Positions 49,409 to 64,000 of a stretch of DNA of 64,000 nucleotides are shown here, piece after piece. Under the pieces are notes generated by a model. That model made no database searches. It worked only from the letters and a program-made list of their open reading frames with translations, and was not told the DNA's origin. Every line of letters begins with the position of its first letter. The first letter of the stretch is position 1. Source of the stretch: Bdellovibrionales bacterium. GTDB taxonomy: Bacteria; Bdellovibrionota; Bdellovibrionia; Bdellovibrionales; UBA1609. The translations under genes were made by a program, and so were the position numbers. The stretch spans positions 986,229 to 1,050,228 of the forward strand of contig OZ241325.1 of assembly GCA_965200025.1 (NCBI GenBank), in the 5' to 3' direction.

Positions 49409-49629
49409 AAAAAGCTTAAAGAATGTAATTTTTACACAGCTAATTATTATGCTTTGCATTAAGCACAAAGCCCTGATAATTTTATTGTAATGCGTTAGTT
49501 CCGTGACATTTTAAAAGACTTATTTTATTTTCTGTTTCTTTACATTCAACTTTTGACCTGTCACATAAAGCTTTTCAGAGTAAATAAGGCTTGTAAGAAA
49601 CAGAAGGCAAAAGAAAGGGAGTTCTTTTG

Positions 49630-50928
49630 ATGAGGAAAACACATTTTGGTTTAACTGCTTCTGTTATTTTTGTTTTCTGCACATGGTTTGTGGAGGCGGA
49701 CCATGCCCACAAAGCGGTATGGAAGGTACAAAACCCCCTGTCTTATATGGGAACTGGTTTTTTTATAGGAAAAAACCTTTTTGTAACCAATTTTCATGTG
49801 GCTTTCTCCTCTAAAAATCCCGGGGATTCTCTTGTTATCACACAGGAAAATCAACAAAAAATCCTTTTAAACCACAGTCAAATTAAAGCTTTTTCGATCC
49901 TCAAAGACCTGGTGCTTTTTGAAACAGAACAAACTGTAAGTCATTTTTTAAAAATGCATCCCTCTTCTTTGGCGGAGGACGAAGATCTTTTTCTCATCTC
50001 TTATCCTTTGGGGAATTTTCAGGAGATCACCAAAACCAGCCACATTCAATTTCACGGGGATATACACACTTTTGCAGTGGATCATTCTTTATTGGCAGGG
50101 GCCAGTGGTTCCCCTGTTTTAAATCTCAATGAGGAGGTTGTGGGCATCGCTTTTGCAGCAGACGGTAATATGTTGAGCATGATACCCGTTACTCATCTGC
50201 ACCATCTGCTTTCCGGGGAAACGGGGCTTCAATGCAGTACAAAATCTCTTGAAGAATGCTTAAAGCAGGAGACAAACCACTTAAAACAGGCCGCCCGGGA
50301 AGGCAACACTTCTGCCCAGTATGTACTGGCCCTGCTCTATGAAAGCGGCTTTGAAGCAAGGAACACCACTCACTACACTTCATCATCCCCCACTTACACC
50401 TGGATGGAAAAAGCCGCAAAAGGGGGCTACCGTCTGGCTCAAAATGACTTGGGACTGATGTACTATAACGGAAAAAATCGAAGGGGAAGAAATATCAAAA
50501 AAGCTTTTGACCTGCTTTATCAGGCGGCCCACCAGGGCCTGGCCTCTTCCCAACTCAATTTGGGCATTGCTTTTCACCAAAACAGAACATCCCCTTACTT
50601 TGACCCGGAAAGAGCTTTTTTTCTGGTGGAGCAGGCGGCCCACCAGGGGTATTCCCGGGCTCAGTTTCACTTAAGTTTAATGCACTACAGGGGTATTGGC
50701 ACTCCTCACAATATGAAACAAACCTTTTACTATATGGAAAAATCCGCTCAGGCCGGTTTTGCCCCGGCTCAAAACAACCTGGGTCTTATGTACAAAGATG
50801 GAAACGGCACAAAAAAGAATTTGCAAAAAGCTCTTATGTGGATCCGGAAAGCCGCCCACCAGGGATGGATACCAGCCCAACACAATCTTTACCGCATCAA
50901 AAAAACACCTGTGGTACTGTCCCCTTAG
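49630..50928 (+). CDS. Secreted trypsin-like serine protease domain fused to six Sel1 repeats
   Basis: The N-terminal half has GTGFFIGKNLFVTNFHV (His) and AGASGSPVLN (Ser). The C-terminal half has repeated AA.(Q/E)G...AQ..LG.MY..G units. Confidence 0.75.
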   Translation: MRKTHFGLTASVIFVFCTWFVEADHAHKAVWKVQNPLSYMGTGFFIGKNLFVTNFHVAFSSKNPGDSLVITQENQQKILLNHSQIKAFSILKDLVLFETEQTVSHFLKMHPSSLAEDEDLFLISYPLGNFQEITKTSHIQFHGDIHTFAVDHSLLAGASGSPVLNLNEEVVGIAFAADGNMLSMIPVTHLHHLLSGETGLQCSTKSLEECLKQETNHLKQAAREGNTSAQYVLALLYESGFEARNTTHYTSSSPTYTWMEKAAKGGYRLAQNDLGLMYYNGKNRRGRNIKKAFDLLYQAAHQGLASSQLNLGIAFHQNRTSPYFDPERAFFLVEQAAHQGYSRAQFHLSLMHYRGIGTPHNMKQTFYYMEKSAQAGFAPAQNNLGLMYKDGNGTKKNLQKALMWIRKAAHQGWIPAQHNLYRIKKTPVVLSP

Positions 50929-53099: not shown

Positions 53100-53175
53100 G
53101 GGGTTGTAGCTCAGCTGGGAGAGCGTAGCACTGGCAGTGCTGAGGTCAGGGGTTCGATCCCCCTCAACTCCACCA
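53100..53175 (+). tRNA. tRNA-Ala (anticodon GGC), CCA encoded
   Basis: Acceptor GGGGTTG/CAACTCC with a G3:U70 pair, anticodon loop CTGGCAG, T-loop GGTTCGATCC. Confidence 0.9.
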
Positions 53176-53233
53176 CACTTTAAACCTTAAGAAAGATACC
53201 TTTAATCAATATTAATAACATGTGTGTCCGTGT

Positions 53234-54442
53234 CTATTTTTGCTTCAGTAAAAATTCAGGATTTAAATGTTCTTCAGGAAGAGGTTTTTCCAATGGCAGG
53301 TAAATGCAGCTGGGTATATCCATTTGATTTAAATACCGGCACATTAAAGGCCCCACATCCCTCCAGTCCAAACCTCCCAGGCCACAACCCAAAGCTGGCA
53401 GGGCCAGGGAGGGAATACCAAGGGCTTTGTAATTTCTCAACAACCACTGCATGCCTTCTTCAATCCCCTTGAGAGGGGATTTGTATTTCCAGTGGACTTT
53501 GGTGGGGAACAGTAAAAACCAACGCTCGCCGTTTTCCGTTGTAAGTGCTTCATTATCTTCTGCAAGTATTTCATTATCTTCCATAAGGGTTTTAATAAAA
53601 TTTACCTCCCTCTTGTGTAAAAAAGGAACACCCATTTTAAGTTTTTTTTGACGACAAAGATCCTGATAAAGAACATACACATCAGGAAACTGATACTTGG
53701 CCCGGGAGGCAAGTCCCTTACCCATAATTCCCACTGTGTTTACACTGATTGTAAAAACCTTCATTTCTGAAAAAAACATATCCCCTTGTTTTAAACTGAT
53801 GTTTTGTGAAATATTTTTTTCTTTATCAGGTAAAAAGAACATATTGGGATTAGGTATACACTTCACTGTTTTTACTGAAGGGTTTATGGTGTATAGAGTG
53901 TTTTTCATTTCTTCAGCAGCTTGTTGATGAGCCACATAAACACTCATAATTTTTTCTTTCGGAATGTGATGATAAACCAGGATTTCCGCCATAATTTTTC
54001 TTTTGCCATCATCGGTGTCATTCCAATAGGTTTTTTTAAACTGCTCCCCTTTCAGAGTGTTTAAACCCTCGCCAATATCTTCAAAAAGTTTTGTATTGTG
54101 AGAGGCTGCATTGCCATCTGCCAATCCCACATCAGGTCCATCAATAATATCTGATTGGATTTGAAGAACAGCAATGTTGCTGGCTTCAAATTTTTTAATG
54201 ACTGAAAATAACATGGGGTTTCTGGCTTCAAAATACACATTGGCATAATCCCATAAAGAGCGATTTTTGAATTTTCTCTCTTCTCTACGCTTCACCACCT
54301 CTTCACTGTGAATGGATTTTGGCTTCCTGTTAAATGGCCACCAGGACCCATGCATTTGAGACCTGCACCATATCCCCTGCTTTAAGAGGGATTTGAGATT
54401 GTCTTTATGAGTTATATAATAAAAACACTTGGGTTTATTCAT
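53234..54442 (-). CDS. DarT-like (DUF4433) ADP-ribosyltransferase fused to a macrodomain
   Basis: The N-terminal half has FYYITHKDNLKSLLKQG, NPMLF, DGNAAS and MAEILVYHHIP. The C-terminal half has NTVGIMGKGLA, FPTKVHW and LPALGCGLGGLDW. It is a single uninterrupted ORF. Confidence 0.7.
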   Translation of the reverse strand: MNKPKCFYYITHKDNLKSLLKQGIWCRSQMHGSWWPFNRKPKSIHSEEVVKRREERKFKNRSLWDYANVYFEARNPMLFSVIKKFEASNIAVLQIQSDIIDGPDVGLADGNAASHNTKLFEDIGEGLNTLKGEQFKKTYWNDTDDGKRKIMAEILVYHHIPKEKIMSVYVAHQQAAEEMKNTLYTINPSVKTVKCIPNPNMFFLPDKEKNISQNISLKQGDMFFSEMKVFTISVNTVGIMGKGLASRAKYQFPDVYVLYQDLCRQKKLKMGVPFLHKREVNFIKTLMEDNEILAEDNEALTTENGERWFLLFPTKVHWKYKSPLKGIEEGMQWLLRNYKALGIPSLALPALGCGLGGLDWRDVGPLMCRYLNQMDIPSCIYLPLEKPLPEEHLNPEFLLKQK

Positions 54443-54509
54443 CAATCATGCCTTTTTTGAACAAAATATATTGATTAAGAGGGCTAAAGCAAGCTATATT
54501 CAGGGAGTT

Positions 54510-55481
54510 ATGAAAGCACAAGAGAACATATCTCTTCAAAAGGTGAAAAAAATATATCATTTGCCTTTGGCAGACCTGGTTTTTCAGGCCCATCTCACGC
54601 ATAAAAAGCACTTTCACCCCCTCCATGTACAGACCAGCAAGCTGCTGTCCATAAAAACAGGGGGATGCCCGGAAAATTGTGCCTACTGCCCCCAGTCCGC
54701 TCACCACAACACGGAACTGAAGAAAGAAAAGCTTATGGACTTAAAGGAGGTGTTAAAATCTGCCAAAAAGGCCAAAGAGGAGGGGGCCACCCGGTTTTGC
54801 ATGGGGGCTGCCTGGAGAGATGTCAAAGATGGCCCCTTGTTTGACCGGGTGTGTGAAATGGTCTCTGAGGTCAAAAAACTGGACATGGAGGTGTGCTGCA
54901 CTCTGGGGATGCTCACATTGGAGCAGGCCAAAAAATTAAAAGCCTGTGGACTTTACGCCTACAACCACAACATTGACTGCTCCAAAAATTTTTACCCCCG
55001 TATTATTACCACCCGCACTTACCAGGACCGGCTCAACACCTTACACCATGTCAGAAAAGCCGGCTTAACTGTTTGTACCGGGGGTATTATAGGGATGGGG
55101 GAAAGCCACCAGGATCGCATTGAGTTTTTGCATCAGCTGGCAGTCTTTGACCCTCAGCCGGAAAGTGTCACCATTAACAAGCTCATTGCCATACCGGGGA
55201 CCCCTTTGCAGGATGCAGAGGCTGTTTCCGCCCTTGAAATAGTGCGGGTGATAGCCACAGCCCGTATAGTTATGCCCAAATCCATGATCCGTCTCAGTGC
55301 CGGACGGGAAAACATGCCAGCTGCCGACCAATTTTTATGTTTTTTCTCAGGAGCAAATTCTCTTTTTATCGGGGACAGGCTTCTCACTGCCAAAAACGCC
55401 AAACTCAAAGATGACCAAAGCCTGTTTCAGCTCTTGGGACTTAGGCCTGTAAAACACCCGGCCCACTCCCACCCGCTATAA
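54510..55481 (+). CDS. bioB: Biotin synthase
   Basis: Radical-SAM motif GGCPENCAYCPQS. The ATG at 54510 has an AGGGAG RBS. Typical length of about 320 aa. Confidence 0.9.
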   Translation: MKAQENISLQKVKKIYHLPLADLVFQAHLTHKKHFHPLHVQTSKLLSIKTGGCPENCAYCPQSAHHNTELKKEKLMDLKEVLKSAKKAKEEGATRFCMGAAWRDVKDGPLFDRVCEMVSEVKKLDMEVCCTLGMLTLEQAKKLKACGLYAYNHNIDCSKNFYPRIITTRTYQDRLNTLHHVRKAGLTVCTGGIIGMGESHQDRIEFLHQLAVFDPQPESVTINKLIAIPGTPLQDAEAVSALEIVRVIATARIVMPKSMIRLSAGRENMPAADQFLCFFSGANSLFIGDRLLTAKNAKLKDDQSLFQLLGLRPVKHPAHSHPL

Positions 55482-55499
55482 ATCACCTGATTTTAAAAA

Positions 55500-56246
55500 A
55501 TGAAGCTTTTTTACTTATGGACTTACAGCAGAGCTTTTTTACACTGGGGGTGGGTTTTCATCATAACCCTCGCATTTGCACCTCTTGTGTGTGCAGGCTA
55601 TGTTCTTAAAAAATCCGATTTTGTGTATATGCTGGCCCGGTTCTGGGCCAGGTTTTTGCTCTGGTTTTGTGGAATCAAAGTATATTGTAAAAACCCGAAA
55701 CATCTGCCTAAAAAAGGCAGCTTTGTTTTACTGTTCAACCACAGAAGCTATGTGGACATACTGGTTTTGTTTGCCTCCACCCACAGGCCTATTTATTTTG
55801 GAGCCAAAAAAGAGCTGTTTGCCATACCGCTTTGGGGATGGTTAATTTCTTTGGCGGGGCAGATCCCCATTCACCGGGAAAATGTGAGGCAGGTTCATAA
55901 GGTTTTTTATTCCCTTAAAAGCCGGGTAAAAACCGGGGATGGTTTTGCCATGGCCGCAGAGGGAGGTACCAAAAAACAGGCCCATCTCAGCCCTTTTAAG
56001 ACAGGGCCTTTTCTTCTGGCTTTTATTTACGGATTGCCCGTGGTGCCTGTTGTGATTTCAGGGGCCAGGGAATGTATGCCCAAAGGGTCTTATTTGTGTA
56101 ATCCATACACTTTAAAAACTGTGGTGAAGGTGGAATTTTTGCCAGCACAAGACACACAGCACTTAAGCAAAACACAAATCCCTGTGTTGAAAAAACAGCT
56201 GCACCAAAAAATGAGCCAACTTTCCCAAAGTGAAAGTGCCATTTAA
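55500..56246 (+). CDS. plsC: 1-acyl-sn-glycerol-3-phosphate acyltransferase
   Basis: An N-terminal TM segment, the HX4D block NHRSYVDIL, and the AAEGGT block. Confidence 0.8.
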   Translation: MKLFYLWTYSRAFLHWGWVFIITLAFAPLVCAGYVLKKSDFVYMLARFWARFLLWFCGIKVYCKNPKHLPKKGSFVLLFNHRSYVDILVLFASTHRPIYFGAKKELFAIPLWGWLISLAGQIPIHRENVRQVHKVFYSLKSRVKTGDGFAMAAEGGTKKQAHLSPFKTGPFLLAFIYGLPVVPVVISGARECMPKGSYLCNPYTLKTVVKVEFLPAQDTQHLSKTQIPVLKKQLHQKMSQLSQSESAI

Positions 56247-56389
56247 TGGCTGCCACCCCATAAACAGAGTATGAAATAAGCTATCATCAAAAACCCCTTC
56301 ACCTCTCAATGGAGAGTGAAGTTCCCCTGTATTTTGGCACCTGGCAAAAAAGCTTGTTTTATTTTAAAGCCTTGTGTTAATTGAGGGGT

Positions 56390-57202
56390 ATGTTTAAGCC
56401 TTACTACCGCAAAGGTGATTTTTGTCTTTATCACGGCAATTGTCTGGATGTGTTGGAGTCTGTTCCAGCGGATTCTGTGGATATGATTTTTGCAGATCCC
56501 CCTTATAATTTGTCCAATGGGGGGTTTTCTGTTCATTCAGGGAAGCAGGTGGATGTTTATAAAGGGAATTGGGATCAAAGCCGTGGGATTGAGAAAGACT
56601 TTGCTTTTCACTTAAGCTGGATAAAAGCCTGCCGGAGGGTTCTTAAGCCGGAAGGTACCTTATGGATCAGCGGAACTTACCATTCCATTTACCAATGTGG
56701 TTTTGCTCTTCAAACCCTGGGTTACAGAATTTTAAACGACATTACATGGTACAAGCCCAACGCTTCGCCCAACATTGGTTGCCGATGTTTTGCTGCCAGT
56801 CACGAGACTTTGATTTGGGCCTCAAAAGAGGAAAAATCAAAATACACTTTCCATTATAAAGACATGAAGTTTGGTTTGTGGAACAGGGATTTTATTAAAA
56901 AACCGGAAAAACAAATGAGGTCTGTTTGGGCTATCAACACCCCTTTAGCTTCTGAAAAAACTGCTGGAAAGCACCCCACGCAAAAACCCCTGGATCTTTT
57001 GATCCGTGTGTTGAAGGCCAGTACAAATAAAAAAGATGTGGTTTTGGATCCTTTTACAGGAAGTTCCACAACAGGGATTGCAGCACATCGTTTAGGCAGG
57101 TCATTTATTGGTATTGACAGCCACAGCCCTTTTTTGGACTTATCCATCAAAAGACTAAAAGCAGAATCCCAACCTATGGTTCAATTGGAACTATCCCCTT
57201 AG
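56390..57202 (+). CDS. Beta-class DNA methyltransferase (N6-adenine or N4-cytosine), CcrM/HinfI-like organisation
   Basis: Motif IV FADPPYN is near the N-terminus. The SAM-binding motif I VLDPFTGSSTTGIAA is near the C-terminus. Confidence 0.8.
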   Translation: MFKPYYRKGDFCLYHGNCLDVLESVPADSVDMIFADPPYNLSNGGFSVHSGKQVDVYKGNWDQSRGIEKDFAFHLSWIKACRRVLKPEGTLWISGTYHSIYQCGFALQTLGYRILNDITWYKPNASPNIGCRCFAASHETLIWASKEEKSKYTFHYKDMKFGLWNRDFIKKPEKQMRSVWAINTPLASEKTAGKHPTQKPLDLLIRVLKASTNKKDVVLDPFTGSSTTGIAAHRLGRSFIGIDSHSPFLDLSIKRLKAESQPMVQLELSP

Positions 57203-57366
57203 GCAAAAATGGAAAAAATCAGCAATAAATCATGGAATAAGATTTTTGAGGATTATAGTATTCACCAACATACTTTTGACAAAAGCTATTGCATTTTTTC
57301 TCAACTTATAAAGGGTATTTGATTAACTGTTGAGTCTTTGCTGTGTTTGTTCTTTTCTGATTTTTT

Positions 57367-58689
57367 TTATAATGTGAAAGAGTTTTCTGGTTCAGAATGT
57401 AGAATTTTCTCTACTGTTTTATGAGGGGATATGCCATAAAATTCATATAAAGATTTTATAAAACAATCTATTTCCTGTTTTGTATTTGAAGAAAATAAAG
57501 ACACCCGTATGCAGGACCTGGCATAATCCTTGGCTGAAGCACCTTCACAAACACCCAATGCCCTTATAACATGGGAAGGTTCAGGGGAGCCGGCATTACA
57601 AGCTGAACCAGCAGAAACACAAATTCCTTTTTTAGCCAGATGAAACAAAACTGATTGGTTGCTCACATTCCCACCGCAATAGATACTGGAGGTGTTTGAA
57701 AGTCTGTGGGCTTGTCTGCAATTCACTCTAAAGAAAGAAGATGGTTTTTTTTCCGGGTTGTTTGTTGAAAAGCTAATCCCTTCTCTGTGCGAAGGGTTTA
57801 AATCTTTGGATAAGTGTTTATGCATGGGGGTCAATAATGTATTTTCCAGATAATCTCTTAAGTTTTTAATGTATGTTTGTTTGCTTAAATCAATATCCTG
57901 TACAGCCAGTTTAAGGGATTGAATAGCCGGGTAGTTATAAGTCCCTGATCGATAGCCTTTTTCCTGTCCACCCCCATACATAAGAGGTGCAAAGGGTGTT
58001 TTGGCATACAAAAGCCCTATCCCCTTCATAGCTCCTGTTTTATGGCCCGAAAAGCTTGCAAAATCCACATCCCAGCTTTCCAAATCCACAGGGGTTTTTC
58101 CCAAAGACTGAACAGCATCCACATGGATTAAGCAACTGTATTTTTTTGCAATTTGACTTATAGTTTTTACATCTGTTATGACTCCTGTTTCATTATTGGC
58201 ACTTAAAAAAGACAACAAAGAGCGAGGGTGTTTTGAGCAAAGCTCTTCCAAGTTGTTTAAATCAATCTCCCCCTCTTTATTATTTGATACAAAAAAAGAT
58301 TTCATACCATAAGGTGAGTCGTATTTTAAAGTGTTGTTTTTTTGAGGGGCATTGAGGGCAAAACCTGATAACGCTTCCACTTTTTTTAAGGTGGCATGAT
58401 GCTCCAACCGGGAGGTGATAACACTGGATATATGGTTAAGCTTTAAAGTTTCCATGGAAAGCACAGTGTTAATGGATTCTGTCCCCCCACTGGTAAAAAA
58501 TAGATATTGTGCGGGGCAATTTAAATAATCAGCAATAAATTTTCTGCACTCTTTAATTTCTTGGTCCAGTTTTTGAGACTTGAGACACAGAGAGGATGGA
58601 TTGTACCAATCCTCTAAAACACCCTGCTCCAAATAACCTCTGACAGAGGGGGAATAAGGAACAGTGGAATTATGATCCAGGTAAATCAT
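57367..58689 (-). CDS. Cysteine desulfurase (DndA/SspA-like), last gene of the phosphorothioation-like operon
   Basis: MIYLDHNSTVP, PLP-lysine block SFSGHKTGAMKGIGLLY, and active site SAGSACNAG. The ATG at 58689 forms an ATGA overlap with the upstream stop. Confidence 0.8.
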   Translation of the reverse strand: MIYLDHNSTVPYSPSVRGYLEQGVLEDWYNPSSLCLKSQKLDQEIKECRKFIADYLNCPAQYLFFTSGGTESINTVLSMETLKLNHISSVITSRLEHHATLKKVEALSGFALNAPQKNNTLKYDSPYGMKSFFVSNNKEGEIDLNNLEELCSKHPRSLLSFLSANNETGVITDVKTISQIAKKYSCLIHVDAVQSLGKTPVDLESWDVDFASFSGHKTGAMKGIGLLYAKTPFAPLMYGGGQEKGYRSGTYNYPAIQSLKLAVQDIDLSKQTYIKNLRDYLENTLLTPMHKHLSKDLNPSHREGISFSTNNPEKKPSSFFRVNCRQAHRLSNTSSIYCGGNVSNQSVLFHLAKKGICVSAGSACNAGSPEPSHVIRALGVCEGASAKDYARSCIRVSLFSSNTKQEIDCFIKSLYEFYGISPHKTVEKILHSEPENSFTL

Positions 58690-60755
58690 TTGCCCCACTT
58701 TTTTTCCAAATTTTTAAGATATTTCTTTATTGTATTTGTTATTTCTTTATCTCTTGCTTCTATAAATGTTTTATACAGATTTTCTTTGTCCTGATTGTTT
58801 GCGTTTCTTACTTTAATGGAAAAATCATCCCAGGAAAGACTATTAATTGTGTTAGGAATTACAGCTTTATATTCTTTAATTTCCCTATTAGACCAAGAAA
58901 ACCAACTTTTAGCACGATCCTCCCGGTTAACCGGTTTTGGTAATAAAGCCAAATTAAAAACAGAATTAATATAATGTTTTTTCTTTCTGGTTATTGGTTG
59001 TTCTCTATTTTGATTGAAGTCATTTAAGGATATTAAATGTGACTTTTCAAGTTCAGAGTCTTTTAACTTATCTATTACTTTTGAATAATTATTTAAGTTG
59101 TTATTCAGTATACCGTAGGTTAAAATAAACTGCAAAATTGGATATTCCAATTTAGGGGTTTCCTGATCTTTCAAAGACTCAGAATCACTGTAGCCTGGAT
59201 CGTTAAAAACTTTTTCAGATGTTTCTTCTATTACACCTTCAGTTTTCCCTGTATCTAATAATTTTTTTAAATTTTTTATATCCTCTATGGAGCGAGGATT
59301 TTGTTTCTCCCTATATCTACCTCCAAACAATGCACTCCAGTACCAATAAAGAATTTTATACATATCTCTTTCACTTAAATTGTTATGTTTATCATATAAA
59401 TTTTTTGCCATTGGAATAAGCATTAACTCATAAGAAATCTCATTTATATTTGAAACACCACAATATCCGGATAAAAACCTAAAAGCCAAAGCAATAGAAG
59501 TTACAGCTTTATCAGTATGTCTATCAATATCTTCTTTTGTAAGAGACAATTTATGTTTTTCTTTAATATGGTCAGAAGCATGATTATTTGAAGAAAAAAT
59601 ACCCAACATATTTAAATATGATTTATGAAATTTTTGTTCATCTTTATCTTTTTTAAAATGATTAAATAATTTTTCAGTATCAATGCTTGGTAAAATATTA
59701 TGTTTTTTATTACAAGCTTCATTAAATTTATTTTTTATACGATCTTTGAGTAATTCCTCTTTCGTGAAGGCAGAATATTTGGCTGCAATAATGTCAAATG
59801 CACTTAAAGGCAGTCCACCTGTATTCATAGCAGTAAAAGCTTCAACAGCTTTTGGAAAGTTGTCTTTATAAGTTATAATAAAAATCTTTCTTCTGTCAGT
59901 AAGAAAACGTTGCAAAGTCTCATATATATCATCTGCCCATTGTTGAGAGAGTTTTTCAACTTTATCTCTATCATCCAAGTCAATGGAAATATCATATTCC
60001 TTTAGAATATCTATAAATTTATTTTTTTCTTCATGGTTATTTTTTAATGCTAAGAACCACTTGTTTTGGAAAATTTTTTGAGTTGGCTCTTTCAATAACT
60101 CCTTATATTTAGAGGATAGATCAGTTCTTTCTATGGTAGACAGAATCAAAAATAATGCTACATATTGATTGTTAATTAAAAAATTTTCAAAGTCCTCTGA
60201 TCTGTTCCTGATAACATGAGGATGAAATGGTTTTCTTTTCTTTGTTTTTACAATTTTGTTCTGAATAATTAAATCTTTTATATCTGAAATATTTTTATCA
60301 TCTTTTATTTCTGCATATTTTATGAGATCTAAAATAATTCTTAAATGTGTCTGGTCAATTTTTCCTTTCTTATCAAAAATTCCTAATTTAAAAAACCATC
60401 TGCTTTTTAAATTGTTGTATAGTTCATCAAATATCTGATTGTCTCCTTTTTTAAAAAAATCATCAAAAACCCCCTTAATAGTGGTAAGCCTCTGTTGTCC
60501 ATCCATGAGATAACAATTAGCTTTTTCACCTTCAGAATTATTTGGATTCTTATATCCAATTGTTTTTGTCATCATATTTGTTTCAGTTTCTAAAAATAAT
60601 AAGCTGCCAATGGGAACATTATAGAAGATGGAAGCAATTAAGCTTTTTTGTTTTTCTTTGTCCCAATTAAAATCTCTTTGAAAATTCGGTAATAATAATT
60701 TATTATTATTTATTTCCTTCATTATGTCTTGTATATTTTTTTCTTTGGAATCCAT
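58686..60755 (-). CDS. DUF262 (DGQQR) + DUF1524-like nuclease protein, SspE/GmrSD-like
   Basis: The N-terminus has LLLPNFQRDFNW.. and YLMDGQQRLTT. The C-terminus has EKSHLISL...INSVFNLALLPKPVN, an His-Me/HNH-like pattern. 689 aa. Confidence 0.7.
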   Translation of the reverse strand: MDSKEKNIQDIMKEINNNKLLLPNFQRDFNWDKEKQKSLIASIFYNVPIGSLLFLETETNMMTKTIGYKNPNNSEGEKANCYLMDGQQRLTTIKGVFDDFFKKGDNQIFDELYNNLKSRWFFKLGIFDKKGKIDQTHLRIILDLIKYAEIKDDKNISDIKDLIIQNKIVKTKKRKPFHPHVIRNRSEDFENFLINNQYVALFLILSTIERTDLSSKYKELLKEPTQKIFQNKWFLALKNNHEEKNKFIDILKEYDISIDLDDRDKVEKLSQQWADDIYETLQRFLTDRRKIFIITYKDNFPKAVEAFTAMNTGGLPLSAFDIIAAKYSAFTKEELLKDRIKNKFNEACNKKHNILPSIDTEKLFNHFKKDKDEQKFHKSYLNMLGIFSSNNHASDHIKEKHKLSLTKEDIDRHTDKAVTSIALAFRFLSGYCGVSNINEISYELMLIPMAKNLYDKHNNLSERDMYKILYWYWSALFGGRYREKQNPRSIEDIKNLKKLLDTGKTEGVIEETSEKVFNDPGYSDSESLKDQETPKLEYPILQFILTYGILNNNLNNYSKVIDKLKDSELEKSHLISLNDFNQNREQPITRKKKHYINSVFNLALLPKPVNREDRAKSWFSWSNREIKEYKAVIPNTINSLSWDDFSIKVRNANNQDKENLYKTFIEARDKEITNTIKKYLKNLEKKWGK

Positions 60756-60770
60756 TATACCCTTCCCTCG

Positions 60771-61616
60771 TTAAAGGTCGCAGATGAGGCAGGCATCTGC
60801 CTGTCCATCATCATTTACAACATCTTTAAAAACATCTGTTATGTGTTTTCCGTTTTGATTTAACCGGGCTTTTTGCATCCGGGCCTTATAATCCTGTTTT
60901 ATTTTTTCCTTGTTTTTTTCCACCTCCTCAAGAGGCATGCCATCCACCCAGGTAAAACTCACATGGTCCCCCTTATAATTCTGTTTCTCGTACCTCTTGG
61001 CTTTTTTAAACAGCTTGGGGTGTTTTTCCAAAAGCCCCACCCATTCTATTTTTCTCTGAAAAAAGCAAAAATAACACCCCGACCTGGCCCGCCACTCATA
61101 ATACTTGGGAAGACCAATGCCCGATTCTTTTAAAATCTGATTAACCCCATTGAGGTCAATGCCCTCCTCCTTAAAAGGGTAGCGGGGAACAATGGTCTCT
61201 TTTTGGGAAATGTAACCCTTTCGATGCTCATCCGCCCGTATACCAATATAACTCTCTATCAAATCCTCCCCAATATACCTCTCAAAAGACTTGATTTTCA
61301 TCTCCATGGTACACCACCTGGCCCGGGGGGATGGTAAATAATCAGAATGCTGCTTAAGTAAGTAATCAAAGTTTTTTTCGCTGTTGAGCCGTACAATCTT
61401 TTGAGCCAAAAATGCCTCCAGCTTGTCCAGGTATTCGTAAGTTTCGGGCAATTCACTTCCTGTATCACAAAATACATACTCCAGCCTGGGGATTTTATTT
61501 TTCAGAAAGATAGCCATAGCCGTGGAATCCTTACCACCAGACAAAGGACATATCTGCCGTCTTTTTTTATCGTATTTAAGCATGTATTTCCGGCTCCCGG
61601 GAATACCCCTCTTCAT
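60771..61616 (-). CDS. PP-loop ATP pyrophosphatase of the PAPS-reductase family (SspD/DndC-like)
   Basis: Blocks CPLSGGKDS (PP-loop), RWCT, GIRADEH and RSGCYFC. An alternative ATG at 61583 would reduce the overlap with the upstream gene to 8 nt. Confidence 0.8.
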   Translation of the reverse strand: MKRGIPGSRKYMLKYDKKRRQICPLSGGKDSTAMAIFLKNKIPRLEYVFCDTGSELPETYEYLDKLEAFLAQKIVRLNSEKNFDYLLKQHSDYLPSPRARWCTMEMKIKSFERYIGEDLIESYIGIRADEHRKGYISQKETIVPRYPFKEEGIDLNGVNQILKESGIGLPKYYEWRARSGCYFCFFQRKIEWVGLLEKHPKLFKKAKRYEKQNYKGDHVSFTWVDGMPLEEVEKNKEKIKQDYKARMQKARLNQNGKHITDVFKDVVNDDGQADACLICDL

Positions 61617-64000
61617 ATTTCATAAACTCTGAGTGTTTTTGATCAAAAGACTCTATAAGAGATAAAATAATTTTTCTTTTGTCTGTTTCATCAAAAGTGT
61701 TTAAAATCATTTTTATTTTCTCTAAAGAAGATTTAAGATGTTTGTTCACATCAAATGAAGTACCTAATTTAACAAAGGTCTTTTTATTTTTCCCTTTATC
61801 TATAAAAGCCAAAACAGATTGCCCCTTAAAATGAGGGCTGGCTATCTCACATGCCAGTTCAATCTCTGTCTGCACCCTCTTAAGAGCAAACTCAAATCTG
61901 GAGTACCCTTTGTTATCCCAATATCTGGGGGATGAACCAGTTAATACATCAGCGATTGTTTCCAAAAAATACTGCTTATAACCGGAAGAATCAAAATTCA
62001 ACACTCTTCCTGTAAAACGGGCGGTGTGAGAACTCAAAGGAAAATCTTTCACCTGTGAGAGAGTTTTTTGAAAATTTTGAATAAAATTGTCTTTTTCCAT
62101 AAGTTTAAAAGAATTGTTTAAGCATTTTGTTCTTATAAAATCTATAAAACCTGACAGGTCATTTTGGATTTTTAAAAGCAGATTTTTATAAATGCCTTCA
62201 ATCTCTATTTGAGTGGCCTGTAGTTTTGACAGCAGCTCTGTTATTTCCTTTTTTTTTGTTTTTAAATGGATGTTTGATTTACCAACACAGCCTGGTATTC
62301 CATTAAAAAGAAACTTGTCAGGCTCTTTGGCAGAATCGATTTGAATAAGCAGCTTTCTTCCTGATTGAGACAAGGCAGAGGACAGTTTGGTAGACTCTGG
62401 TATTTTTTTTCTCCACCTCAAGAGTGCCTCAATCACAGAGTGTAAAGACACACCCTGGGCTTTAAACATTTGAGCCAGTTTATCCAAAAAATTTTGCTGC
62501 ACATCATCTATAGTTGTGTAATGGATAAATGTTTTCTTAGGGTACTTCATTAAAAGATCATAATGATCCCCATCCAGCTCTTTGACATAAACCTCATCCA
62601 AATAATGGCTGACAGGCTGCTTAAAACACAAATCAGACAGGGCCATAAAAACAGGCATTACTCCCAACCTTAAACCATAAGGGGGGGAAGCCAGTATATC
62701 CAACAAATCAGCCCCACAAATACCATGGGGGTATTGAGAGAGAATCTCCTGATAGGCTTCAAAAAACTTATAGTAAGGTGACTTTTGAGACACCTGATAA
62801 GTGTTTGTTAAACCATGATATTTAAAATTTGAAAGCCTGAGCATGGCATTAAAAATAACATACTCCGGCCCACGACCCTCTATAAGATGAGCTATATTGT
62901 GTGAGGGATTTTTTTTGTGTTTTCTTAAAAGATCAATAAACTTCTTTCGGGCCAGGGTAATACTCCCCGAAACACTGTGTCTGTTCATATACTCCAGATT
63001 AAAACTGATGTATTGGTTGTATTCTTTCTCAAAAAGATTGCCCAAATATCTCTGTAGCTCTTTAAAATGAGTGATTTTTCTTAAATTACATCCTGCACTT
63101 TTTAAATAACCAGATTTGGGATAAATAACATGGACAGACAACTCCATACAACCAATAAGTGGTCTTAATAAAGAGCTTATGGAGGTCAGTAAAACCTCCT
63201 TGTGGCGGTCCAGTTCTTTTTTTACCAAAGGGCTGGCTGATAAAATTTCTTTATTATTGTACAAACAATCCACAGCATTTAACTCTTCAATATCCTTCCT
63301 GCATTCTATAAATTTCACAGGCAAAACAAAAACAGTGAGCGAAGAAGGTATGCCACGAATAACAGATTTTGCATAAGTCATCTCATCGTGGCTAAAGGGA
63401 ACAACATAAAAAACCCTGCCGTCCTCCCTTAAAAAATCAACAATGTTCTTTTTTGTCTTTAAACTTTTTAACTCCTCAACAGAGATCATCTCTGTCCTGT
63501 AAAAACGGGTAATGGCATGGTCAAAGTTATACTTTTTGGGAATAATGAAGTTTGTTTTAAAATACCTCTTCAAAATTTGAACAAGGGTTTTTCCCGTTAA
63601 GGTTACATTTTTTAACTTTGCAATTTCCTCATCAATATCAACAGGGGTGCCTTCCTGCAAAAGATATTGTTTTGTGGTTTTGTTGTAAAACACCACTCTT
63701 TGAGCTTTCAGAAACTTTAAAGATTTTTCAATATCTGATTTTGAAAACACCTGATTAAAACATGAGGTAATAAACCCCGCTGTTAAAGGGGCAAAGTGAG
63801 TGTCTTTAATAACAGCACACAAAGCCATAAGGCTTATCACCTGTTTGGAAACCTCGTCTTTTTTGTGAACCCTGTTAAAAGCCTCCTCAGTCATGAGTTG
63901 AATTTTATAAGTCCCACCAATACCAATATCTTTTGCAATCAAAAGTTTAAAGTACTGATACAAGTCATAAGGCATTAACAAAGTGGTTTCATTTTTAAAA
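61576..64000 (-). CDS. Large uncharacterised protein (>=808 aa), N-terminus outside the window; candidate SspC/BrxC-like component
   Basis: The frame remains open from the TTG at 63981 to the window edge. No Walker A is visible in the present part. Its stop overlaps the PAPS-reductase gene. Confidence 0.6.
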   Translation of the reverse strand, partial: FKNETTLLMPYDLYQYFKLLIAKDIGIGGTYKIQLMTEEAFNRVHKKDEVSKQVISLMALCAVIKDTHFAPLTAGFITSCFNQVFSKSDIEKSLKFLKAQRVVFYNKTTKQYLLQEGTPVDIDEEIAKLKNVTLTGKTLVQILKRYFKTNFIIPKKYNFDHAITRFYRTEMISVEELKSLKTKKNIVDFLREDGRVFYVVPFSHDEMTYAKSVIRGIPSSLTVFVLPVKFIECRKDIEELNAVDCLYNNKEILSASPLVKKELDRHKEVLLTSISSLLRPLIGCMELSVHVIYPKSGYLKSAGCNLRKITHFKELQRYLGNLFEKEYNQYISFNLEYMNRHSVSGSITLARKKFIDLLRKHKKNPSHNIAHLIEGRGPEYVIFNAMLRLSNFKYHGLTNTYQVSQKSPYYKFFEAYQEILSQYPHGICGADLLDILASPPYGLRLGVMPVFMALSDLCFKQPVSHYLDEVYVKELDGDHYDLLMKYPKKTFIHYTTIDDVQQNFLDKLAQMFKAQGVSLHSVIEALLRWRKKIPESTKLSSALSQSGRKLLIQIDSAKEPDKFLFNGIPGCVGKSNIHLKTKKKEITELLSKLQATQIEIEGIYKNLLLKIQNDLSGFIDFIRTKCLNNSFKLMEKDNFIQNFQKTLSQVKDFPLSSHTARFTGRVLNFDSSGYKQYFLETIADVLTGSSPRYWDNKGYSRFEFALKRVQTEIELACEIASPHFKGQSVLAFIDKGKNKKTFVKLGTSFDVNKHLKSSLEKIKMILNTFDETDKRKIILSLIESFDQKHSEFMKYEEGYSREPEIHA

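What the first reader, a model, noticed from the sequence alone, without database searches (positions are those of the whole stretch)
53100..54442. DarT-like toxin domain and macrodomain fused in one polypeptide, alone next to tRNA-Ala
The 402-aa ORF combines two domains. The N-terminal half has the hallmark blocks of DUF4433/DarT DNA ADP-ribosyltransferases: (F/Y)H.TH..NL.SIL..G-like FYYITHKDNLKSLLKQG, NPMLF, DGNAAS, and the catalytic-Glu block AEILV. The C-terminal half is a complete macrodomain: N..G.MGKGLA, FPTK.HW and P.LGCGLGGLDW. In the established DarTG toxin-antitoxin and antiphage system, the transferase and the macrodomain hydrolase are separate proteins. A covalent writer-eraser fusion would need a different control logic, such as a conformational or proteolytic switch, or a reversible DNA/RNA/protein ADP-ribosylation cycle. 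The gene sits alone between tRNA-Ala (59 nt away) and bioB, which is a typical islet position.
Basis: partly seen in the sequence, partly recalled or inferred. Interest (0 to 1): 0.65.

Follow-up and report, generated by a model that had tools for sequence, protein, structure and literature searches.

The report
Single-chain DarT–macrodomain (DarTG) fusion gene
The gene really does encode a DNA ADP-ribosylating toxin domain fused to its own eraser macrodomain, but this single-chain form is an already solved and widespread family (Thermosipho africanus DarTG, PDB 7OMU), so this is one more member, not a new architecture.

Summary
Window 53234-54442 (- strand) is one uninterrupted 402-aa ORF. 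It has a full-length DarT domain (Pfam PF14487, E 1.6e-36) followed by a DarG/TARG1-type macrodomain (PADLOC DarG, E 8.8e-43). Both catalytic residues are present: Glu153 and Lys315. The DarT-binding C-terminal domain of DarG is absent.

The fusion is not new. The protein aligns end to end with PDB 7OMU, "Thermosipho africanus DarTG in complex with ADP-ribose" (released 2021; E 1.5e-112). An AlphaFold model superposes on 7OMU at TM 0.83/0.88.

I collected 200 full-length fused homologues from many bacterial phyla and some archaea. Glu153 and Lys315 are each conserved in 199 of 200. The family has no conserved partner gene. The three closest relatives I looked up sit in defence islands (type I R-M, AbiE, Fic, transposases) at differing positions.

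The "tRNA islet" reading is weak. I found no integrase among the flanking genes, no tRNA-derived repeat and near-normal GC, and none of 49 related loci has a tRNA within 4 kb. An Ssp phosphorothioation cluster and a DNA methylase lie 2-3 kb away.

Most likely function, inferred and not shown: a self-contained, self-neutralising ssDNA ADP-ribosylation module used in phage defence. How a 1:1 tethered writer and eraser is switched on remains open.

The parts
53234..54442 (-). Single-chain DarTG gene: 402 codons plus the TAG stop at 53234-53236. The start is the ATG at 54440-54442; an in-frame TTG at 54443-54445 is the mechanical ORF start.
53834..54421 (-). DarT (DUF4433) ADP-ribosyltransferase domain, residues 8-203 in ATG numbering.
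   Evidence: Pfam PF14487 full-length match, E 1.6e-36. PADLOC DarT E 1e-35. Foldseek matches to Thermus DarT 7OMY/7OMV, E about 4e-14.
53984..53986 (-). Codon of Glu153 (GAA), the predicted catalytic glutamate of the DarT domain, in the motif M-A-E-I-L-V.
   Evidence: It aligns with the Ala of the Glu-to-Ala crystallised chains 7OMV (E160A), 7YK3, 8BAQ and 7OMU (PMC11281641). It is conserved in 199 of 200 fused homologues.
53273..53800 (-). DarG/TARG1-type macrodomain, residues 215-390. The protein ends 12 residues later, so there is no DarG C-terminal DarT-binding domain.
   Evidence: PADLOC DarG E 8.8e-43, profile positions 2-152 of 329. NCBIfam antitoxin_DarG matches positions 68-155 of 338. 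PDB matches 5M3I/5M31. Foldseek matches 5M3E/5M3I.
53498..53500 (-). Codon of Lys315 (AAA) in FPTKVHW, the equivalent of the catalytic Lys80 of DarG and Lys84 of TARG1.
   Evidence: Alignment to the Taq and Mtb DarG macrodomains, FPTKKHW. The role of K80 is from PMC8385414. It is conserved in 199 of 200.
53540..53581 (-). Imperfect 21-nt tandem duplication (18 of 21 bases identical) encoding EDNEILA/EDNEALT. It lies inside a variable acidic insertion loop of the macrodomain.
   Evidence: The 279-307 segment is 28 aa here against a family median of 21, and the 284-305 part has net charge -6 against a mean of -2.3. The AF2 pLDDT is below 50 for residues 290-304. The segment is an insertion relative to Mtb DarG.
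53100..53175 (+). tRNA-Ala(GGC). It is a neighbour of the gene, not part of the system.
   Evidence: ARAGORN. It is the only Rfam hit in 52-56 kb. No repeat of it occurs downstream.

Best explanation
The gene encodes a single-chain DarTG of the family typified by Thermosipho africanus DarTG (PDB 7OMU). An N-terminal DarT-type NAD+-dependent ssDNA-base ADP-ribosyltransferase is joined, through a conserved structured linker (MFFLP ... GDMFFS), to a DarG/TARG1-type macrodomain that removes the same mark. It lacks the C-terminal domain through which two-gene DarG physically sequesters DarT. What is shown: the architecture, both catalytic residues, the fold, the family distribution, the absence of a conserved partner, and a defence-island context in the three closest relatives looked up. 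What is inferred: the tethered eraser keeps the host's net DNA ADP-ribosylation low. The module then acts as a self-contained phage-defence (abortive infection) element when abundant phage ssDNA, or loss or inhibition of macrodomain activity, tips the balance towards modification and blocks DNA replication. The trigger and the target base or motif are unknown.
For: Identity and architecture: plus an end-to-end alignment to 7OMU (residues 7-400 against 25-404, E 1.5e-112). The AF2 model (pLDDT 81.5, pTM 0.83) has 7OMU as its top Foldseek hit, named 'Thermosipho africanus DarTG in complex with ADP-ribose', at TM 0.83/0.88 over 402 columns. Both centres are under selection: in 200 full-length fused homologues, E153 is kept in 199, K315 in 199, R53 in 197, and the G-rich loops are near-invariant. 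All four crystallised DarT chains, including 7OMU, carry Ala at the catalytic Glu, consistent with an active and toxic wild-type domain. The module is self-contained: no neighbour family is shared across 50 fused loci beyond lineage-level synteny. Defence context: the closest homologues sit among type I R-M (HsdR/HsdS), AbiEii, Fic, integrase, transposases, SLFN and AAA_15 genes. Immediate neighbours elsewhere include MkoA, PD-T4-6, AbiEi and HsdS. In the window, a DNA methylase and SspA/D/C lie 2-3 kb away. DarTG is reported to provide phage defence and to co-occur with R-M systems (PMC8385414; PMC12170906). It behaves as an accessory gene: its position differs among relatives. In the genome of P0023, for example, it lies about 370 kb from bioB. 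It is present in only about 13 of about 35 large contigs that carry the closest bioB homologues, judged by matching contig lengths.
Against: No activity was measured for this protein. I could not read any functional data for any fused member, because Schuller et al. 2021 is not in the library. Many neighbours of fused genes are ordinary housekeeping genes such as 6PGD, a Na/Ala symporter, aconitase and NadA; here they are bioB and tRNA-Ala. Defence association is therefore qualitative and was not tested statistically. A fixed 1:1 tether removes the usual toxin-antitoxin trigger of differential antitoxin turnover, so the activation step is speculative. NCBIfam equivalog cut-offs for DarT (89 bits against 150) and DarG (137.5 against 250) are not reached, so the substrate could differ from that of canonical DarT2/DarG2. 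Only 1 fused copy was found in 2.9 million viral contigs and none on plasmids, so the route of mobility is unclear.
Confidence: 0.6

Rival explanations
1. A physiological, reversible DNA-marking enzyme rather than a defence module. The fused writer and eraser would set a low steady-state level of ADP-ribose on ssDNA, for example at origins or promoters, to couple replication and transcription to NAD+ or growth state, as reported for DarT-DarG in Mycobacterium tuberculosis.
For: M. tuberculosis DarT-DarG controls replication and gene expression (PMC12170906). Here the gene has near-native GC (0.386 against 0.419), housekeeping neighbours (tRNA-Ala and bioB) and no mobility genes among the ten flanking genes scanned. 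The roughly 90 closest homologues come from the same clade as the host, judged by matching contig lengths.
Against: The gene has a patchy presence and non-conserved positions among related genomes. The closest homologues are embedded in R-M, Abi and transposase islands. The family is scattered across many phyla and archaea, as expected for a horizontally moving accessory gene.
Confidence: 0.2
2. A degenerate or domesticated fusion in which only the macrodomain matters, for example as an eraser of ADP-ribosylation inflicted by foreign ADP-ribosyltransferases. The DarT half would be an inactive scaffold or DNA-binding module.
For: The macrodomain is much more conserved than the DarT half: mean identity to the query is 68.5% against 44.9%. 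Macro-only ORFs of the fused clade exist in Poribacteria and other genomes (L046, L052-L054). Phages carry stand-alone DarG-like macrodomains.
Against: The DarT catalytic Glu is kept in 199 of 200 members. R53 (197), N111 (195), Y70 (195) and H12 (186) are also kept, and the Pfam DarT match covers the full profile. Such conservation is not expected for a dead domain.
Confidence: 0.1
3. A classical addiction-type toxin-antitoxin module that needs proteolytic separation of the two halves, with faster decay of the macrodomain, to release the toxin.
For: It descends from a toxin-antitoxin pair. Canonical darT and darG are separated by only 0-3 nt, mostly in the same frame, so the fusion could be a recent read-through of a TA operon. 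A disordered loop exists at residues 290-304.
Against: The inter-domain linker is conserved and predicted to be structured: F202, F203 and D221-F224 are invariant in the 30-sequence alignment. The model has pTM 0.83 and the same domain arrangement as the crystal structure. The fusion is ancient and stable, spanning 27-65% identity across phyla, and it has lost the DarG C-terminal domain. The disordered loop lies inside the macrodomain, not between the domains.
Confidence: 0.07
4. An assembly or sequencing artefact: a missed stop codon that masks an ordinary darT-darG pair.
For: In canonical operons the two genes are often in the same frame and separated by little more than the stop codon.
Against: The ORF is continuous and an identical protein is deposited independently (P0001). 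200 homologues have the same length and architecture, and a crystal structure of the fused chain exists. The protein also lacks the roughly 190-aa DarG C-terminal domain that a masked pair would retain.
Confidence: 0.01

Closest known systems
Thermosipho africanus DarTG, single-chain DarT-macrodomain protein (PDB 7OMU, released 2021-06-23; from memory, part of Schuller et al., Nature 2021, which I could not read here)
   Same: Both have the same one-polypeptide architecture, domain order and length (402 against about 385 native residues). They are colinear end to end (E 1.5e-112) and have the same predicted three-dimensional arrangement (TM 0.83/0.88). They share the linker motifs (FFLP, GDMFFS) and the macrodomain loops, and both have an insertion loop in the macrodomain.
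   Different: Foldseek reports about 44% identity. The host lineage differs: a Bdellovibrionales-like organism of about 1.9 Mb against Thermotogota. The acidic loop here is longer and carries a 7-aa duplication. The crystallised chain has Ala at the catalytic Glu position, whereas this gene has Glu.
Canonical two-gene DarTG2 toxin-antitoxin and phage-defence system (Thermus, M. tuberculosis, EPEC; DarT2 plus DarG)
   Same: The DarT fold and catalytic Glu are shared, as are the DarG/TARG1-type macrodomain and its catalytic Lys. The gene order is also the same, with the writer upstream of the eraser. The DarT half is closer to DarT2 (7OMV, E 1.6e-10; 7YK3, E 2.4e-7) than to DarT1 (8BAQ, E 5e-5). 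Some relatives share the association with R-M systems (PMC8385414).
   Different: This is one ORF instead of two. The DarG C-terminal domain, which binds and inhibits DarT (reported as ssDNA mimicry), is absent. Identity is only 25-33%. Both NCBIfam equivalog cut-offs are missed. Stoichiometry is fixed at 1:1, so control by antitoxin turnover is not available.
DarTG1 (DarT1 plus a NADAR-domain DarG1; guanosine-specific)
   Same: Both contain a DarT-family ADP-ribosyltransferase. The same Asn-Ala-Ala motif is present at the base-recognition position (PMC11281641).
   Different: The eraser here is a macrodomain, not a NADAR domain. Similarity to DarT1 is the weakest of the DarT structures.
Phage-encoded orphan DarG-like macrodomains (anti-DarT counter-defence)
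   Same: The macrodomain half is similar at 31-37% identity over residues 215-380.
   Different: These are stand-alone erasers without a DarT domain, encoded by phages.

Membership tests
DarT (Pfam PF14487 / DUF4433) ssDNA ADP-ribosyltransferases | Full-length match to the family profile above the curated cut-off | tested here: met
   126.4 bits against 22.5, profile positions 1-201 of 201. PADLOC DarT E 1e-35.
DarT (Pfam PF14487 / DUF4433) ssDNA ADP-ribosyltransferases | Catalytic glutamate of the ARTT region (Glu160 in Thermus DarT2) | tested here: met
   Glu153 aligns with the mutated Ala of 7OMV, 7YK3, 8BAQ and 7OMU (PMC11281641). It is kept in 199 of 200 family members.
DarT (Pfam PF14487 / DUF4433) ssDNA ADP-ribosyltransferases | Thymidine-recognising and activating residues of Thermus DarT2 (Arg51, His119) | tested here: inconclusive
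   Arg53 is kept in 197 of 200 members and lies within a few positions of Arg51, but in a gappy alignment region. The His119 position is Asn111 (DGNAAS), which is also found in thymidine-specific M. tuberculosis DarT (DGNAA) and in DarT1. No base specificity can be read from it.
DarT (Pfam PF14487 / DUF4433) ssDNA ADP-ribosyltransferases | NCBIfam toxin_DarT equivalog score | tested here: not met
   89 bits against a cut-off of 150. The domain is a homologue, not an equivalog of the two-gene toxin.
DarT (Pfam PF14487 / DUF4433) ssDNA ADP-ribosyltransferases | NAD+-dependent ADP-ribosylation of ssDNA bases | not testable with these tools
   This needs biochemistry.
DarG antitoxin (macrodomain plus C-terminal DarT-binding domain) | TARG1-like macrodomain with the catalytic Lys (K80 in DarG) | tested here: met
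   PADLOC DarG E 8.8e-43. Alignments to 5M3I and 5M31 place Lys315 in FPTK. It is kept in 199 of 200 members. The role of K80 is from PMC8385414.
DarG antitoxin (macrodomain plus C-terminal DarT-binding domain) | C-terminal domain that binds and sequesters DarT | tested here: not met
   Only profile positions 2-152 of 329 (PADLOC) and 68-155 of 338 (NCBIfam) are matched, and the protein ends 12 residues after the macrodomain. NCBIfam scores 137.5 bits against a cut-off of 250.
Two-gene DarTG toxin-antitoxin operon | Toxin and antitoxin encoded as separate polypeptides | tested here: not met
   This is a single ORF. Genuine two-gene pairs look different: darT of about 207 aa plus darG of about 345-365 aa.
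Single-chain DarTG (T. africanus 7OMU type) | Colinear similarity over both domains and the linker, in one ORF of about 385-420 aa | tested here: met
   E 1.5e-112 over residues 7-400. 200 full-length relatives were collected. About 30 full-length clusters appear among the 66 clusters with E <= 1e-30 in the 50%-identity library.
Single-chain DarTG (T. africanus 7OMU type) | Same fold and relative domain arrangement | tested here: met
   AF2 pTM 0.83. Foldseek TM 0.83/0.88 and rmsd 3.3 over 402 columns. This compares a prediction with a crystal structure.
tRNA-integrated genomic islet | Integrase, a direct repeat of the tRNA 3' end at the far boundary, and deviant composition | tested here: not met
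   No repeat of any 12-20-mer from the tRNA occurs in 53176-58000. No integrase is among the ten flanking genes. GC is 0.386 against 0.419 for the window. 0 of 49 related loci has a tRNA within 4 kb.

The most novel reading that the evidence does not exclude
The single-chain DarTG clade may be a mechanistically distinct class in which intramolecular control replaces the DarG C-terminal domain. For instance, the clade-specific, disordered, acidic insertion loop of the macrodomain (unusually long and duplicated here) could act in cis as an ssDNA mimic that gates the DarT groove. Competing phage ssDNA, or another infection cue, would then switch on a one-protein defence system that current two-gene DarTG detection rules would miss.
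Probability: 0.1. Interest if true: 0.55.

Novelty: new member of a known kind. Interest (0 to 1): 0.25.

Why it matters
The value is mostly corrective. The fusion is real, but it has been structurally characterised since 2021 and is common in environmental bacteria. It should be annotated as a single-chain DarTG rather than flagged as a new architecture.

A residual question is worth a modest experiment. I found no open-access functional study of how a 1:1 tethered DNA ADP-ribosyl writer and eraser, lacking the toxin-sequestering domain, is kept silent and then activated, or of whether it defends against phage.

The data here supply the material for that experiment. They comprise 200 family members with both catalytic centres conserved, no partner gene, and defence-island contexts. 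Fused genes probably escape two-gene DarTG rules in defence-system finders, but that is my inference and was not tested.

Tried and rejected
1. The first genome-contig scan, using the single protein, found no relative. The profile-based rescan worked.
2. The exact-sequence lookup of the window's own protein found no contig on record, and cluster members carried no organism names. The host is therefore inferred to be Bdellovibrionales-like only from named relatives.
3. I attempted an empty-site test of the islet idea through bioB homologues. Relatives at about 72% BioB identity share no synteny around bioB, so the test is uninformative beyond showing that the fused gene's position is not conserved.
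4. I considered reading base specificity from Asn111, which replaces Thermus His119 and resembles DarT1 Asn104. I rejected this because thymidine-specific M. tuberculosis DarT also has DGNAA.
5. Literature searches for the fused form found nothing: Thermosipho plus DarTG, 7OMU, 'DarTG fusion' and variants, and DUF4433 plus macro plus fused. Schuller et al. 2021 and LeRoux et al. 2022 are not held.
6. The sigma-70 promoter scan gave no convincing promoter for the gene in the 64-nt divergent spacer shared with bioB.
7. Tandem Repeats Finder found nothing in the gene. The 21-nt duplication was seen by eye and then verified by script.
8. Plasmid and phage collections hold only two-gene DarT/DarG pairs or macro-only genes, with no close fused homologue. 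Only one fused copy turned up in the viral-contig collection.
Full report
**What is there.** The window carries one uninterrupted ORF at 53234..54445 on the minus strand. The ATG at 54440-54442 gives 402 residues, and that start matches the N-termini of all close homologues (MN[KR]PK.FYYITH).

Pfam matches the whole DarT model (PF14487; residues 9-204 cover profile positions 1-201 of 201; E 1.6e-36; 126 bits against a 22.5 cut-off). It also matches the Macro model (PF01661; 26.9 bits against 22). PADLOC gives DarT at E 1e-35. It gives DarG at E 8.8e-43, but only over profile positions 2-152 of 329, which is the macrodomain half of DarG. NCBIfam finds both the toxin_DarT and antitoxin_DarG models, each below its equivalog cut-off (89 against 150, and 137.5 against 250).

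tRNA-Ala(GGC) is at 53100-53175 on the plus strand, 58 nt beyond the stop codon. bioB starts at 54510 on the plus strand, divergently.

**Both active sites look intact.**
- Glu153 (codon 53984-53986) lies in M-A-E-I-L-V. It aligns with the position that is Ala in the crystallised DarT chains (Thermus 7OMV, M. tuberculosis 7YK3, E. coli DarT1 8BAQ) and in 7OMU itself. For Thermus DarT2 (Glu160Ala) and DarT1 (Glu152Ala), PMC11281641 says this is the key glutamate.
- Lys315 (codon 53498-53500) lies in FPTKVHW. It aligns with the first Lys of FPTKKHW in the Thermus aquaticus and M. tuberculosis DarG macrodomains. Mutating DarG K80, the residue corresponding to TARG1's main catalytic residue, abolishes DarG activity (PMC8385414); by my count, allowing for a tag in the crystallised chain, that first Lys is K80.
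- I assembled 200 full-length two-domain homologues. Glu153 is kept in 199, Lys315 in 199, Arg53 in 197, Asn111 in 195, and the glycine-rich macrodomain loops are almost invariant.
- The macrodomain half is more conserved than the DarT half (mean identity to the query 68.5% against 44.9%), but the DarT half is clearly not decaying.

**The fusion is already known.**
- A PDB sequence search returns 7omu_AAA, a 406-residue chain. It aligns end to end with the query (residues 7-400 against 25-404; E 1.5e-112).
- I built an AlphaFold2 model from a 30-sequence alignment (pLDDT 81.5, pTM 0.83). Its top Foldseek hit in the PDB is 7OMU, described as "Thermosipho africanus DarTG in complex with ADP-ribose", released 2021-06-23. 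The match has TM 0.83/0.88 over 402 columns. It is followed by the separate Thermus and Mtb DarT structures and the DarG macrodomains.
- From memory this entry belongs to Schuller et al., Nature 2021. That paper is not in the library, and no open-access paper I could search discusses the fused form.

**The family is large and widespread.**
- The 90%-identity protein collection returns 2362 hits. The best 120 are nearly all about 385-430 aa (a few are truncated), and all but one carry both Pfam domains.
- In the 50%-identity library, 66 clusters score E <= 1e-30, and about 30 of those are full-length fusions.
Of the 80 kept plus the three contigs fetched are single-ORF fusions.
- The fusions share 32-65% identity with the query. 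They come from Bdellovibrionales (the closest named relative, 59%), Terriglobia, Chloroflexota, Poribacteria, Cyanobacteria, Planctomycetota, Thermotogota, Aquificaceae and Bathyarchaeota.
- The hits at 25-33% identity (L055-L080) are ordinary two-gene pairs: darT of about 207 aa and darG of about 345-365 aa. Their stop and start codons are 0-3 nt apart and mostly in the same frame.
- The fused clade therefore looks like an old read-through fusion that also lost the DarG C-terminal domain.

**Context.**
- No neighbouring gene family is shared across the 50 fused loci beyond lineage-level synteny in Poribacteria, Nostoc and Prochloron. The gene is a self-contained module.
- The three closest homologues I could place sit in defence or mobile islands. 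One lies between HsdR and a transposase, with an integrase nearby (L081). One lies inside a type I R-M cluster with AbiEii and Fic (L082). One lies next to SLFN/AlbA, AAA_15 and a transposase (L083).
- Immediate neighbours elsewhere are mixed. Some are housekeeping genes (6PGD, Na/Ala symporter, aconitase). Others are defence-type proteins (MkoA, PD-T4-6 kinases, AbiEi, HsdS).
- Co-occurrence of DarTG with R-M systems is reported for the two-gene form (PMC8385414).

**The tRNA-islet idea is weak.**
- No 12-20-mer of the tRNA recurs in the next 4.8 kb.
- None of the ten flanking genes is an integrase.
- GC is 0.386 against 0.419 for the window, within the range of neighbouring genes.
- None of 49 related loci has a tRNA within 4 kb of the fusion.
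- BioB-based synteny with relatives was uninformative, because the bioB neighbourhoods are not conserved. It did show that in one related genome the fusion lies about 370 kb from bioB.
- Matching contig lengths between searches indicate that about 13 of about 35 related large contigs carry a fused DarTG. This points to a patchy accessory gene that circulates within the host's clade.
- The gene is not strictly alone. A type II/orphan N6/N4 DNA methylase (56381-57202) and an SspA / DUF262 / SspD / SspC cluster (57367-63981) lie 2-3 kb away, beyond bioB and an acyltransferase gene.

**How it most likely works.**
- *Shown:* a DarT2-like transferase domain and a DarG-type eraser domain, both with catalytic residues under strong purifying selection. 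They are joined by a conserved structured linker (invariant FF at 202-203 and DMFF at 221-224 in the 30-sequence alignment) in a compact arrangement equal to the crystal structure. There is no partner gene.
- *Known for the two-gene system:* DarT ADP-ribosylates thymidine in ssDNA. DarG neutralises it in two ways, by removing the mark and by physically sequestering DarT through its C-terminal domain (PMC8385414, PMC12170906). [quoted passage not shown]
- *Inferred for this protein:* the tethered macrodomain erases self-inflicted marks. Net modification would rise only when substrate or conditions change, for example with abundant phage ssDNA or macrodomain inhibition, and this would block replication.
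- *Unknown:* the usual toxin-antitoxin trigger, faster loss of the antitoxin, is not available to a 1:1 fusion, so the activation step is the real unknown.
- I put 0.6 on the overall statement. Family identity is near-certain; the defence role is roughly even odds or slightly better.
- Rivals are a physiological DNA-marking role as in M. tuberculosis (0.2), a macrodomain-only function with a dead DarT half (0.1, disfavoured by conservation of Glu153), a proteolytically released toxin (0.07, disfavoured by the structured conserved linker), and an assembly artefact (refuted).

**A small peculiarity.** The macrodomain of the fused clade carries an insertion relative to canonical DarG. The segment is variable, net acidic, and of low confidence in the model (pLDDT below 50 for residues 290-304). 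In this gene the segment is the longest of 200 members (28 aa against a median of 21; net charge -6 against -2.3). The extra length comes from an imperfect 21-nt tandem duplication at 53540-53581 that encodes EDNEILA/EDNEALT. DarG's missing C-terminal domain is reported to inhibit DarT by ssDNA mimicry (title of Deep et al. 2023, cited in PMC12170906). An acidic cis-loop acting as a substitute mimic is therefore an attractive but untested idea. I give it about 0.1.

**Verdict.** This is a new member of the known single-chain DarTG family. Interest is low to moderate (0.25), resting only on the unresolved control logic and the apparently untested biological role of the fused form.

Noticed in passing
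window 57367-63981 (- strand): An Ssp-type DNA phosphorothioation/defence cluster. It comprises SspA cysteine desulfurase (57367-58698; PADLOC E 1.5e-81), a 689-aa GmrSD_N/DUF262 protein (58686-60755; possibly SspE-like), SspD (60771-61616; E 5.9e-106) and an SspC-like ATPase (61576-63981; E 3.2e-71, matching only profile positions about 370-1050). GC drops to 0.25-0.30 around 59-60 kb.
   Followed up: partly
window 56381-57202 (+): An N6/N4 DNA methyltransferase (Pfam E 1.8e-54; PADLOC type II MTase E 2e-91, orphan MTase E 7e-75). No obvious restriction enzyme lies next to it. It sits between the acyltransferase gene and the Ssp cluster.
   Followed up: partly
window 53540-53581 (- strand): An imperfect 21-nt tandem duplication (GAAGATAATGAAATACTTGCA / GAAGATAATGAAGCACTTACA) inside the fusion gene. 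It lengthens the acidic variable loop of the macrodomain to the longest value seen in 200 homologues.
   Followed up: yes
loci L055-L080: In canonical two-gene DarTG operons, the darT stop and the darG start are 0-3 nt apart and mostly in the same reading frame. tblastn reads straight through them, so loss of one stop codon would create a fusion.
   Followed up: partly
L046 5085-5702; L052 1-591; L053 5983-6588; L054 5986-6588: Stand-alone macrodomain ORFs of about 200 aa in Thermoflexus and Poribacteria genomes. They are 51-55% identical to the macro half of the fused clade, and tblastn detected no DarT half in the fetched flanks. They could be orphan erasers or remnants of fusions.
   Followed up: no
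L044 5944-7155; L045 1223-2296: Fused-clade genes that are interrupted or truncated: broken ORFs in a Planctomycetaceae MAG, and a 357-aa ORF in an unclassified MAG. These may be pseudogenes or assembly errors.
   Followed up: no
window 54393-54420 (+): A near-consensus sigma-70-like promoter (TTGAGA, 16-nt spacer, TATAAT; 11 of 12) pointing towards bioB. It lies inside the first codons of the fusion gene on the opposite strand. It may be the bioB promoter or a chance match.
   Followed up: no
window 53100-53175: Rfam's tmRNA model scores 40.4 bits on the tRNA-Ala gene, below its gathering score of 47. This reflects the tRNA-Ala-like part of tmRNA. The 76-nt gene is an ordinary tRNA according to ARAGORN.
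   Followed up: yes
window 49627-50928 (+): A protein that combines a trypsin-like peptidase domain with C-terminal Sel1 repeats. It is unrelated to the finding.
   Followed up: no
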